Positions 4,036 to 4,715 of a DNA stretch of 64,000 nt are shown piece after piece. The position numbers were made by a program, and so were the translations under genes. The first letter of the stretch is position 1, and each line of letters opens with the position of its first letter. The stretch is from Escherichia coli (GTDB lineage: Bacteria; Pseudomonadota; Gammaproteobacteria; Enterobacterales; Enterobacteriaceae), in the NCBI RefSeq assembly GCF_030013205.1, contig NZ_CP122648.1; one strand, given 5' to 3'. Below the pieces are notes generated by a model. That model saw only the letters and a list, made by a program, of their open reading frames with translations, was not told where the DNA came from and ran no database searches.

Positions 4036-4481
4036 ATCAGTCGCTCACCCTTGCTTTTTTGATTGCCGCCGGAATTGGTCTGGTAGTCCAGAACACGCTG
4101 ATGGTGCGCATCACCCAGACCTCCTCTACCATTCTCATCGCCATGTTGCTGAACTCACTGGTGGGGATTGTGCTCTTTGTTTCTATTTTATGGTTTAAAC
4201 AAGGTATGGCGGGGTTTAGCGAACTGGTGTCCAACGTGCGCTGGTGGACACTTATACCTGGCTTGCTGGGATCGTTTTTTGTCTTCGCCAGTATCAGCGG
4301 ATATCAGAATGTGGGAGCGGCGACAACTATTGCGGTACTGGTCGCCAGCCAGCTGATTGGCGGTCTGGTGCTGGATATCTTCCGCAGCCATGGCGTACCA
4401 CTACGGGCGTTGATCGGCCCAATTTGTGGCGCAATTTTACTTGTGGTTGGTGCCTGGCTGGTGGCCAGGCGCACATTTTAA
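4032..4481 (+). CDS. ydcZ: DMT-superfamily inner membrane protein
   Basis: 149 aa strongly hydrophobic ORF; translationally coupled (ATGA overlap) to mnaT. Confidence 0.8.
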   Translation: MNQSLTLAFLIAAGIGLVVQNTLMVRITQTSSTILIAMLLNSLVGIVLFVSILWFKQGMAGFSELVSNVRWWTLIPGLLGSFFVFASISGYQNVGAATTIAVLVASQLIGGLVLDIFRSHGVPLRALIGPICGAILLVVGAWLVARRTF

Positions 4482-4715
4482 TCAGAGGATGGTGCCACCT
4501 TTGGTTAACTGTTCGTGGCGCGCTTCCATATCTTCTTTATGTTTGCGACCGTGATGGGCGATCGCTGTGCGCAGACGCTGCTGCTGGGTATAGCGATCTT
4601 CCCGACTTAACTCCGCATCATCGCTCAGGGCGATTAATAATTCGTTCATATGGGCAATGACGCTCTCTTCAATCGCGGCATCCACGCGCGCGATGACTTC
4701 ATCCAGATGCGACAT
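4482..4715 (-). CDS. ydcY: Small uncharacterized protein (DUF2526-like)
   Basis: 77 aa ORF; its stop codon abuts the ydcZ stop with zero intergenic bases. Confidence 0.75.
   Translation of the reverse strand: MSHLDEVIARVDAAIEESVIAHMNELLIALSDDAELSREDRYTQQQRLRTAIAHHGRKHKEDMEARHEQLTKGGTIL

What the first reader, a model, noticed from the sequence alone, without database searches (positions are those of the whole stretch)
4470..4490. Convergent ydcZ and ydcY abut with zero intergenic bases
The ydcZ stop (TAA 4479-4481, plus) is directly followed by the ydcY stop (TGA 4482-4484 on the minus strand), leaving no room for a terminator. Convergent transcripts must overlap or read into each other, which could give antisense interference between the mnaT-ydcZ operon and ydcY.
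Basis: seen in the sequence. Interest (0 to 1): 0.25.

Follow-up and report, generated by a model that had tools for sequence, protein, structure and literature searches.

The report
Back-to-back genes sharing one hairpin
Two E. coli genes that face each other (ydcZ and ydcY) do touch stop codon to stop codon, but the RNA hairpin that marks the transcript end is written into the last codons of ydcZ, so this is an ordinary, compact gene junction and not a new regulatory device.

Summary
The ydcZ stop is TAA at 4479-4481 (+). The ydcY stop is TGA, the reverse complement of 4482-4484. The gap is zero.

The inference "no room for a terminator" is wrong. A GC-rich palindrome at 4450-4472 lies inside ydcZ codons 140-147 and folds on both strands.

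Published K-12 Term-seq data (Adams 2021) place the dominant ydcY mRNA 3' end 37 nt past its stop codon, just after this hairpin and antisense to ydcZ. The same study reports a strongly bicyclomycin-sensitive Rho termination region about 315 nt further in. So ydcY ends like a Rho-terminated, hairpin-protected transcript. Its stable overlap with ydcZ is only about 37 nt. No ydcZ 3' end has been mapped.

In 70 Enterobacteriaceae species with this gene pair, 43 have gaps of -4 to 9 nt. The embedded hairpin is more stable than synonymous-codon resampling predicts, mainly where the genes abut. It has mostly decayed where REP-like palindromes fill a spacer, but this association is only suggestive after a phylogenetic control.

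Junctions without spacers are common: 58 convergent overlaps in E. coli, and 3 of 11 convergent pairs in this window. Functional antisense interference is untested.

This is a new member of a known kind, of low interest.

The parts
3517..4035 (+). mnaT (GNAT N-acyltransferase) coding sequence. It lies upstream of ydcZ and its stop overlaps the ydcZ start by 4 nt (ATGA).
   Evidence: ORF list; Pfam GNAT hits; RefSeq annotation.
4032..4481 (+). ydcZ (DMT_YdcZ family inner-membrane protein) coding sequence, with stop TAA at 4479-4481.
   Evidence: Pfam PF04657, E = 3.6e-24.
4482..4715 (-). ydcY (DUF2526, 77 aa) coding sequence. Its stop TGA is the reverse complement of 4482-4484.
   Evidence: Pfam PF10735, E = 1.1e-46.
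4479..4484 (.). The junction itself: TAA followed directly by TCA, two stop codons back to back with a gap of 0.
   Evidence: Raw sequence. The same abutment is found in all 6 Escherichia loci.
4450..4472 (.). GC-rich palindrome inside ydcZ codons 140-147 (G-A-W-L-V-A-R-R). It forms a 10-bp stem on the ydcZ-sense RNA, and a 7-bp core stem plus flanking pairs on the ydcY-sense RNA.
   Evidence: Terminator scan. Folds: ydcZ-sense -19.6 kcal/mol (z -3.2) and ydcY-sense -15.2 kcal/mol (z -3.7). It is the top-ranked of 365 codon windows against a synonymous-codon null. The Arg147 codon is the rare AGG/AGA.
4476..4479 (+). Run of four T (TTTT) starting 4 nt after the stem and running into the TAA stop. 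At best it is a weak U-tract for ydcZ-sense intrinsic termination.
   Evidence: tail ACATTTTAAT. No 3' end was detected here in published K-12 Term-seq.
4445..4481 (-). Inferred ydcY 3' UTR of 37 nt. It is antisense to the last 12 codons and stop of ydcZ. The mRNA 3' end is placed at window 4445 by homology to K-12 position 1517918.
   Evidence: Adams et al. 2021, supplementary file 1: the 3' end at 1517918 (+) is classed 'primary' for ydcY and 'antisense' to ydcZ and is listed three times, once per growth-condition tab. The published sequence string matches K-12. The window differs from K-12 at 5 bases here, so the window position is inferred.
4167..4444 (-). Untranslated ydcY-sense read-through zone, antisense to ydcZ, where C mostly exceeds G. 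It ends at the Rho termination region, K-12 1518196, which corresponds to window 4167.
   Evidence: Adams et al. 2021, supplementary file 2: Rho score 15.8, p = 2.2e-25. C/G ratio is 1.0-2.5 from +1 to +350, peaking at +251..+300.
4758..4785 (-). Sigma-70-like promoter candidate for ydcY (TTGACG, 16-nt spacer, TATCAT).
   Evidence: Consensus scan only, 10 of 12 matches. Not verified experimentally here.

Best explanation
This is an ordinary, compact convergent junction. The transcript-end signal has been absorbed into coding sequence.

Shown. A GC-rich palindrome at 4450-4472 is encoded by the last codons of ydcZ. It folds into a stable hairpin on both RNA strands.

Shown for K-12, inferred for this strain. 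RNA polymerase transcribing ydcY runs past the stop codon into ydcZ on the antisense strand. That RNA is untranslated and mostly C-rich, and Rho terminates it within about 300 nt. The steady-state ydcY mRNA ends 37 nt past its stop codon, just after the hairpin, which has no U-tract.

Inferred. 3'-to-5' exonucleases trim the Rho-terminated RNA back to the hairpin, which then protects the mRNA.

Inferred only. For mnaT-ydcZ, the same palindrome followed by UUUU at the stop codon acts as a weak intrinsic terminator or a protective 3' hairpin when ribosomes lag behind the polymerase.

Consequence. The mature transcripts overlap by a few tens of nucleotides, and Rho prevents long antisense RNA. 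The zero gap reflects genome compaction between two conserved C-termini. It is not a dedicated regulatory design.
For: Geometry of the junction.

Hairpin. The terminator scan ranks 4450-4472 first, with 10 pairs of which 7 are GC. Folds give ydcZ-sense -19.6 kcal/mol (z -3.2). The ydcY 3' UTR folds at -15.2 in the window (z -3.7) and -14.3 in K-12 (z -4.0).

Experimental data. Adams et al. 2021 (PMC7815308) list a dominant Term-seq 3' end at K-12 1517918 (+). It appears three times in supplementary file 1, which has one tab per growth condition, and two rows shown carry 17,670 and 1,884 reads. It lies 37 nt after the ydcY stop and 3-5 nt after the stem. No 3' end is listed at 15178xx on either strand. 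A Rho termination region lies at 1518196 (+), antisense to ydcZ. Reads upstream/downstream are 164/9 untreated and 213/185 with bicyclomycin, giving a Rho score of 15.8 and p = 2e-25.

Composition. C/G is 1.0-2.5 on the ydcY-sense RNA from +1 to +350.

Known class. Dar & Sorek 2018 (PMC6061677) describe Rho-dependent transcripts that end precisely after stable stem-loops without U-tracts, with rut sites just downstream.

Selection on the hairpin.
- Under synonymous-codon resampling, the ydcY-sense hairpin reaches p<=0.05 in 76% of 45 abutting sequences (gap <=9 nt) against 22% of 27 with larger gaps.
- A stricter null gives 26/43 against 4/27.
- About 9-10% of windows reach that level by chance.
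- Arg147 is AGA or AGG in 53 of 67 Arg cases, against 4.3% AGR in the window's long ORFs.
- Where the genes are separated, the spacer is usually a REP-like or other strongly structured palindrome.

Precedent. In E. coli, 21 of 58 convergent overlaps carry predicted rho-independent terminators inside the partner's coding sequence (PMC2174442).
Against: - The Term-seq and bicyclomycin data are from K-12. Its hairpin region differs from the window at 5 bases, so the transfer to this strain is by homology.
- No 3' end for ydcZ was found in the one dataset that covered the locus. The ydcZ half of the model is therefore inference.
- The T-run is short (4 T) and starts 4 nt after the stem, so it makes a poor canonical terminator.
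- Exonuclease trimming was not tested for this transcript. The hairpin could instead pause or terminate polymerase directly.
- Evidence for selection is incomplete. No compensatory covariation is seen, with 0 double changes.
- Several abutting lineages lack the hairpin: some Enterobacter, Salmonella and Atlantibacter.
- A phylogenetically independent comparison gives only 5 of 7 pairs in the predicted direction, one-sided p = 0.055.
Confidence: 0.6

Rival explanations
1. Functional antisense or collision interference. The abutment exists so that ydcY transcription represses mnaT-ydcZ, and possibly the reverse. The mechanism would be head-on polymerase collisions in the distal two-thirds of ydcZ, or pairing of the 37-nt ydcY 3' UTR with the ydcZ mRNA 3' end. 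This would be an excludon-like reciprocal switch.
For: Polymerases from ydcY do travel up to about 315 nt into the 450-nt ydcZ gene. The ydcY 3' UTR is perfectly complementary to the last 37 nt of ydcZ. The convergent arrangement is conserved in 70 of 80 ydcY loci. ydcY is reported as a hub among genes upregulated under multiple stresses (PMC9501238).
Against: Rho removes about 95% of the read-through by +315 in untreated cells (9 reads against 164). The stable overlap is only 37 nt. Many lineages have separated the genes with REP-like elements or whole genes, giving gaps of 26-1349 nt, so the abutment itself is dispensable. I found no data on reciprocal expression. Convergent junctions without spacers are common and are not known to be generally regulatory.
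Confidence: 0.15
2. A collision-driven 'overlapping bidirectional terminator' as described by Ju et al. 2019 and Wang et al. Converging polymerases meet at the stem-loop and dislodge one another, independently of Rho and of a U-tract.
For: The site is a convergent pair, and a stem-loop lies in the region where transcripts would overlap. This class is said to control hundreds of E. coli genes and to need a stem-loop to position collisions (bioRxiv 10.1101/2022.10.23.513370).
Against: The ydcY strand shows very strong bicyclomycin-dependent read-through (Rho score 15.8), whereas this class is defined as Rho-independent. Only one of the two 3' ends is mapped. Collision efficiency is reported to rise with expression, and mnaT-ydcZ gave no detectable 3' end. 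The Ju et al. site list could not be consulted because the paper is not held.
Confidence: 0.08
3. The hairpin is incidental. It is a by-product of the conserved YdcZ C-terminus (GAWLVARR) and of inherited codons, not a selected RNA element. The ydcY 3' end simply falls at the first stable structure that exonucleases meet, and nothing about the junction is under selection.
For: The amino-acid sequence is nearly invariant. No compensatory changes are seen. Several abutting lineages lack the hairpin. After the phylogenetic control, the link between gap size and hairpin strength is only p = 0.055. Any GC-rich coding stretch gives hairpins of -14 to -15 kcal/mol within about 130 nt.
Against: With the amino acids held fixed, the hairpin is still an outlier. 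It is the top-ranked of 365 windows in the window's three genes, and p<=0.01 in most abutting species. A codon that is rare genome-wide (AGR) is kept at the position that pairs with U7 of the stem. Atlantibacter, which lacks this hairpin, carries a different and very strong embedded hairpin 67-102 nt downstream of ydcY (z about -4).
Confidence: 0.17

Closest known systems
Rho-dependent transcript ends protected by a U-less stem-loop (Dar & Sorek 2018, NAR, PMC6061677)
   Same: The ydcY mRNA has a precise steady-state 3' end a few nucleotides after a stable stem-loop with no U-tract. Read-through downstream is bicyclomycin-sensitive, and C-rich RNA lies immediately downstream.
   Different: Here the stem-loop and the rut-like region lie inside the coding sequence of the convergent neighbour, on its antisense strand, not in an intergenic 3' UTR. 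Dependence on PNPase or RNase II has not been tested for this transcript.
Convergent gene overlaps with terminators embedded in the partner's coding sequence (Lillo & Krakauer 2007, PMC2174442)
   Same: There is no intergenic space, so the termination or 3'-end signal must be, and is, written in a coding region. That paper reports 58 such convergent overlaps in E. coli, 21 of them with predicted rho-independent terminators inside the partner gene.
   Different: In Escherichia the coding sequences abut (gap 0) and do not overlap. The classical 4-nt overlap (TTAA or CTAA) is seen at this junction only in Atlantibacter and one Enterobacter asburiae.
Overlapping bidirectional terminators between convergent genes (Ju, Li & Liu 2019; Wang et al., bioRxiv 10.1101/2022.10.23.513370)
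   Same: A convergent pair in which one palindromic stem-loop is usable on both strands and transcripts would overlap by tens of nucleotides.
   Different: That class is described as Rho-independent and collision-driven. Here the ydcY strand is strongly Rho-dependent, and the second 3' end is unmapped.
REP elements at convergent junctions acting as dual 3' UTR elements (bioRxiv 10.64898/2026.03.23.713779)
   Same: In Citrobacter the same ydcY/ydcZ junction holds REP-like palindromes. [quoted passage not shown] About 30% of E. coli convergent junctions (207 of 704) contain a REP.
   Different: The E. coli element is not a REP and is not extragenic. It is a single palindrome constrained by the YdcZ protein sequence.
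Excludons and long 3'-overlapping antisense pairs (described in Listeria; cited from my own knowledge, not checked here)
   Same: A transcript of one gene is antisense to its oppositely oriented neighbour.
   Different: Excludons involve long overlaps that cover much or all of the neighbour and give reciprocal expression. Here the stable overlap is about 37 nt, and Rho curtails the longer read-through.

Membership tests
Canonical intrinsic (Rho-independent) terminator, ydcZ-sense strand | GC-rich stem-loop of about 5-12 bp | tested here: met
   10 pairs, 7 of them GC, with a loop of 3, at 4450-4472. Folding energy is -19.6 kcal/mol, z -3.2. The K-12 allele is weaker: -12.1, z -1.7.
Canonical intrinsic (Rho-independent) terminator, ydcZ-sense strand | U-rich tract immediately after the stem | tested here: inconclusive
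   The tail is ACAUUUUAAU. It has only four consecutive U, starting 4 nt after the stem. It passes the permissive scan (5 T in 8) but is weak by usual standards. In 14 of 72 sequences Phe-stop is TTC-TGA or TTC-TAA, which breaks the run.
Canonical intrinsic (Rho-independent) terminator, ydcZ-sense strand | An in vivo RNA 3' end at the U-tract | tested here: inconclusive
   No entry at K-12 15178xx on either strand in Adams 2021 supplementary file 1. Nothing for these genes in the Yan 2018 or TERMITe supplements. The absence may reflect low expression.
Canonical intrinsic terminator, ydcY-sense strand | U-rich tract after the stem | tested here: not met
   The stem is followed by CAACCACAAGUAAAAUUG. 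No site was called on the minus strand. None of the 70 related loci shows a T-run there.
Rho-dependent end with a protective stem-loop (Dar & Sorek class) | Precise steady-state 3' end immediately downstream of a stable stem-loop lacking a U-tract | tested here: met
   The K-12 Term-seq end at 1517918 lies 3-5 nt after the stem. It is listed three times in a file with one tab per condition. It is transferred to the window by homology.
Rho-dependent end with a protective stem-loop (Dar & Sorek class) | Read-through downstream increases when Rho is inhibited | tested here: met
   Published DirectRNA-seq with and without bicyclomycin gives Rho score 15.8 and p = 2.2e-25 at 1518196 (+), antisense to ydcZ.
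Rho-dependent end with a protective stem-loop (Dar & Sorek class) | C-rich, G-poor rut-like RNA downstream of the structure | tested here: met
   C/G is 1.0-2.5 in every 50-nt bin from +1 to +350, with a maximum of 2.5 at +251..+300. The enrichment is modest.
Rho-dependent end with a protective stem-loop (Dar & Sorek class) | The end is generated by PNPase or RNase II trimming, and the hairpin stabilises the mRNA | not testable with these tools
   This needs 3'-end mapping in pnp and rnb mutants, and stem-breaking synonymous mutants.
Overlapping bidirectional terminator (Ju et al. 2019) | Both convergent transcripts have defined 3' ends that overlap | tested here: inconclusive
   Only the ydcY end is mapped. 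The Ju et al. paper and its tables are not held.
Overlapping bidirectional terminator (Ju et al. 2019) | Independence from Rho | tested here: not met
   The ydcY strand has a Rho score of 15.8.
Convergent overlapping genes | The coding sequences share at least one base | tested here: not met
   The gap is exactly 0 in the window and in all Escherichia loci. A 4-nt overlap occurs only in 5 other loci.
Excludon-like antisense switch | Long stable antisense overlap with reciprocal expression of the two units | tested here: not met
   The stable overlap is 37 nt, and the longer read-through is removed by Rho. Reciprocal expression was not tested.

The most novel reading that the evidence does not exclude
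The palindrome is a selected dual-use element that makes YdcZ output depend on ribosome rescue and on ydcY activity. On the ydcZ strand, any end defined by the hairpin falls at or just before the UAA stop codon at 4479-4481. This holds for intrinsic release at the U-run (4476-4479) and for exonuclease trimming back to a few nucleotides after the stem. A substantial share of ydcZ mRNAs would then lack a complete stop codon. Those mRNAs would feed into tmRNA-mediated tagging. Head-on ydcY transcription would further truncate the message. In evolution, the embedded hairpin would be released from selection whenever a REP or a terminator lands between the genes, a kind of terminator hand-off.
Probability: 0.07. 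Interest if true: 0.5.

Novelty: new member of a known kind. Interest (0 to 1): 0.18.

Why it matters
It matters little beyond annotation. The site is a clean, data-backed example showing that zero intergenic bases does not mean no terminator. A 3'-end hairpin can be encoded within a neighbour's last codons, and Rho can clear the antisense read-through.

The comparative result hints at how transcript-end signals move between coding and non-coding DNA. The hairpin is kept where the genes abut and has decayed where REP-like palindromes fill a spacer. That link is only suggestive after the phylogenetic control.

One practical point follows. Recoding or deleting the 3' end of ydcZ, for example in knockout collections or genome recoding, is likely to alter the 3' end and stability of ydcY mRNA.

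Tried and rejected
- **Rfam.** A scan of 3000-5600 at E<=1 found no known RNA family.
- **Covariation in the stem.** There were 0 compensatory double changes, and the observed percentage of paired cells (79.3%) was barely above the shuffled mean (78.9%). This is uninformative, because the protein sequence fixes most positions.
- **A mapped ydcZ 3' end or other datasets.**
  - The Dar & Sorek 2018 and Conway 2014 supplements are not held.
  - The Yan 2018 and TERMITe 2025 supplements do not mention these genes.
  - Ju et al. 2019 and Thomason 2015 are not held.
- **ydcY as a toxin-antitoxin partner of the neighbouring ortT.** Rejected from the literature. YdcY does not neutralise OrtT and is not in an operon with it (PMC4344625). 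ortT is also absent outside Escherichia.
- **The naive Fisher test linking gap size to hairpin strength (p = 2e-5).** I do not rely on it, because the species are related. The independent-pair test gives p = 0.055.
- **A fully intrinsic terminator for ydcY.** Rejected, because there is no U-tract and read-through under bicyclomycin is about 87%.
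Full report
**1. The observation**

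The sequence and ORF list show ydcZ at 4032..4481 (+), ending in TAA at 4479-4481. ydcY lies at 4482..4715 (-), and its TGA stop is the reverse complement of tca at 4482-4484. The two stop codons are adjacent, with no base between them and no overlap.

The region is E. coli. It is found in 5415 of 5426 complete genomes and is 97.9% identical to K-12. RefSeq annotates the same abutment in K-12 and in a 99.9% identical strain. Pfam confirms the genes as DMT_YdcZ, DUF2526 and a GNAT acetyltransferase for mnaT. The mnaT stop overlaps the ydcZ start by 4 nt (ATGA), so an mnaT-ydcZ operon is plausible.

**2. Is it unusual?**

No. The annotation of the near-identical strain covers the whole window. 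It gives 11 convergent junctions, of which 3 have a gap of 0 or less:
- yncP/hokB, -23
- rimL/ydcK, -9 (verified in the window: ORFs 19486..20466 + and 20458..21012 -)
- ydcY/ydcZ, 0

Lillo & Krakauer (PMC2174442) counted 58 convergent coding overlaps in E. coli. In 19 of them one gene, and in 2 both genes, have a predicted rho-independent terminator inside the partner's coding sequence. A recent preprint counts 704 convergent pairs in E. coli.

**3. What is at the junction**

The consensus scan ranks a hairpin at 4450-4472 (+) first: GTGCCTGGCTGGTGGCCAGGCGC, with 10 pairs of which 7 are GC. It is followed by ACATTTTAAT. The hairpin lies inside ydcZ codons 140-147 (G-A-W-L-V-A-R-R), and the T-run covers the stop codon.

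| RNA | Strain | Folding energy (kcal/mol) | z vs shuffles |
|---|---|---|---|
| ydcZ-sense, 40 nt | window | -19.6 | -3.2 |
| ydcZ-sense, 40 nt | K-12 | -12.1 | -1.7 |
| ydcY 3' UTR, 37 nt | window | -15.2 | -3.7 |
| ydcY 3' UTR, 37 nt | K-12 | -14.3 | -4.0 |

The ydcY-sense stem is followed by CAACCACAAG, with no U-tract. So "no room for a terminator" is not a valid inference. The structure is written into coding sequence. Rfam finds no known RNA family here.

**4. Experimental data from the literature**

Adams et al. 2021 (eLife, PMC7815308) curated dominant Term-seq 3' ends for MG1655 in three growth conditions. Supplementary file 1 lists a 3' end at 1517918 (+), classed as 'primary' for ydcY and 'antisense' to ydcZ. 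It appears three times, and the file has one tab per condition. The two rows shown carry 17,670 and 1,884 reads.

K-12 ydcY ends at 1517881 and ydcZ occupies 1517882-1518331. The published sequence string matches the K-12 locus exactly. It places the end 37 nt after the ydcY stop and 3-5 nt after the stem. By homology this is window position 4445 (-).

No 3' end at 15178xx is listed on either strand, so no ydcZ end was detected. Supplementary file 2 (DirectRNA-seq with and without bicyclomycin) lists a Rho termination region at 1518196 (+), antisense to ydcZ. Read counts upstream/downstream are 164/9 untreated and 213/185 treated, giving a Rho score of 15.8 and p = 2.2e-25. This corresponds to window ~4167, about 315 nt beyond the ydcY stop.

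The ydcY-sense RNA across this stretch has C at or above G in every 50-nt bin from +1 to +350, with a peak C/G of 2.5 at +251..+300.

This is the signature that Dar & Sorek 2018 describe for Rho-dependent transcripts (PMC6061677). Those transcripts have precise ends just downstream of stable stem-loops that lack U-tracts, with rut sites immediately downstream. Their 3' ends are protected from PNPase and RNase II.

**5. Comparative evidence**

A search with YdcY recovered 80 loci from Enterobacteriaceae species. In 70 of them ydcZ is the convergent neighbour. The gap between the stop codons is distributed as follows.

| Gap (nt) | Loci | Notes |
|---|---|---|
| -4 | 5 | Atlantibacter group; one Enterobacter asburiae |
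| 0 | 8 | all 6 Escherichia loci, plus one Enterobacter and one Kosakonia |
| 1-3 | 22 | |
| 4-9 | 8 | |
| 26-329 | 22 | spacer present |
| >700 | 5 | other DNA inserted between the genes |

So 43 of 70 loci have gaps of 9 nt or less, and tight abutment is ancestral and widespread. The 26-329 nt spacers are mostly strongly structured palindromes. They are REP-like units in Citrobacter, other palindromic units in Pseudescherichia and Kluyvera, and a canonical terminator in Kosakonia cowanii. Their z-scores run from -3 to -7, with three weakly structured exceptions.

I asked whether the embedded hairpin is more than a by-product of the conserved protein sequence. I resampled synonymous codons with the amino acids held fixed.
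- With E. coli codon usage, the ydcY-sense hairpin reaches p<=0.05 in 76% of the 45 sequences with gap <=9. These are the 43 related loci plus the window and K-12, and their median energy is -17.0 kcal/mol. For 27 loci with larger gaps the figure is 22%, with median energy -6.0.
- With a stricter null, using codon usage pooled from the ydcZ genes themselves, the figures are 26/43 against 4/27.
- The null is slightly liberal: 9-10% of 365 control windows reach p<=0.05. Even so, the ydcZ C-terminal windows rank first on the sense strand and second on the antisense strand.
- The Arg147 codon that pairs within the stem is AGA or AGG in 53 of 67 Arg cases. AGR makes up 4.3% of Arg codons in the window's long ORFs.
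- Atlantibacter lacks this hairpin. It carries a different, very stable embedded hairpin 67-102 nt downstream of the ydcY stop, at -26 to -29 kcal/mol and z about -4.

There are caveats.
- There is no compensatory covariation, as expected under coding constraint.
- Several abutting Enterobacter and Salmonella loci lack a significant hairpin.
- With phylogenetically independent pairs, only 5 of 7 go in the predicted direction, one-sided p = 0.055.
- The naive Fisher p of 2e-5 is inflated by relatedness.

**6. Most likely mechanism**

Shown for K-12 and transferred to this strain by homology (5 base differences in the hairpin region): ydcY transcription runs into ydcZ on the antisense strand. 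It is terminated by Rho within about 300 nt. The steady-state ydcY mRNA ends 37 nt past its stop, at the hairpin.

Inferred: the end is produced by exonuclease trimming back to the hairpin, which stabilises the mRNA. On the other strand, the same palindrome plus UUUU at the stop codon gives mnaT-ydcZ a weak intrinsic terminator or a protective 3' hairpin. Because that hairpin lies in translated sequence, it can form only when ribosomes lag behind the polymerase.

The mature RNAs would then overlap by a few tens of nucleotides. My confidence in this overall picture is about 0.6. The ydcY half rests on data and the ydcZ half on inference.

**7. Rival explanations**

It is untested. Rho removes about 95% of the read-through. 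Many lineages have also separated the genes, so the abutment looks dispensable.
- *Collision-driven, Rho-independent bidirectional terminator (about 0.08; Ju 2019, Wang et al.).* This conflicts with the strong bicyclomycin effect.
- *Incidental hairpin with no selection (about 0.17).* The resampling results and the rare-codon usage argue against it, but it is not excluded.

**8. Comparison with known systems, and novelty**

The site works like a Rho-dependent, stem-loop-protected 3' end. Four of the five defining features are met and the fifth is not testable with these tools. It is a further example of a convergent junction whose end signal lies in the partner's coding sequence.

It is not a canonical intrinsic terminator on the ydcY strand, because there is no U-tract. 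It is not a Rho-independent bidirectional terminator, not a true coding overlap in Escherichia, and not an excludon.

The ydcY 3' end is already present in a published table, though undiscussed, and the architecture belongs to known kinds. I rate it a new member of a known kind, with interest about 0.18.

The most novel reading not excluded concerns the ydcZ strand. Hairpin-defined ends there would fall at or before the stop codon, giving non-stop mRNAs handled by tmRNA. Over evolutionary time, the hairpin would also be released from selection once a REP inserts between the genes. I put this at probability about 0.07.

Noticed in passing
window 6922-6929 (junction); ORF 6899..7852 (-): The window lacks 673 bp of ydcV, an ABC-transporter permease gene in the ydcSTUV-patD cluster, compared with K-12 and strain W13-16. 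The two alignment blocks overlap by 8 nt at the junction, which suggests microhomology. ydcU acquires an altered C-terminus (317 aa). The same junction occurs intact in only 7 of 5426 complete E. coli genomes, and the six strains listed are all porcine ETEC. It therefore looks like a natural, lineage-specific deletion.
   Followed up: partly
window 20458-20466: There is a second spacer-less convergent junction in the same window. ydcK (19486..20466, +) and rimL (20458..21012, -) overlap by 9 nt at their 3' ends. I did not check for an embedded terminator or a mapped 3' end.
   Followed up: partly
window ~5290-5324 (+), downstream of yncL (5169-5264): The yncL 3' end (K-12 1517039, minus strand) is one of the strongest Term-seq peaks near here, with 75,000 to 536,000 reads in Adams 2021. 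It follows a perfect 12-bp hairpin, GTACTGTCAGAG...CTCTGACAGTAC. That hairpin is followed by GCAAGATCATC, so it has no U-tract. It sits in the 96-nt gap before the convergent patD.
   Followed up: no
window ~5006 (-), upstream of ortT (annotated CDS 4801-4974, -): Adams 2021 lists an 'orphan' 3' end at K-12 1517357 (+), with 848 reads, about 32 nt upstream of the ortT start. It lies at a small palindrome followed by TTTTATT. This may be premature termination in the ortT leader.
   Followed up: no
window 15546-16774 (+) and about 37700-39000: ydcO and ynbD are annotated as frameshifted pseudogenes in the 99.9% identical strain W13-16. In the window the ydcO region is split into ORFs 15546..15911 and 15950..16774, which is consistent with the same frameshift. 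I did not check ynbD in the window, and its window position is only approximate.
   Followed up: partly
L069, L074, L075, L076 (Atlantibacter group), ydcZ codons ~116-128: These loci have a 4-nt ydcY/ydcZ overlap and lack the C-terminal hairpin. Instead they carry a 12-bp embedded hairpin, ATCGCCCGCAGC...GCTGCGGGCGAT, 67-102 nt downstream of the ydcY stop. Its energy reaches -29 kcal/mol, with z about -4 against the synonymous-codon null. It may be an alternative 3'-end structure.
   Followed up: partly
L002-L081 versus the window region 4801-4974: Homologues of ortT, the orphan toxin gene next to ydcY, were detected only in the Escherichia loci among 80 ydcY-containing Enterobacteriaceae loci. 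ortT therefore looks like a recent insertion beside an older ydcY/ydcZ/mnaT block.
   Followed up: no
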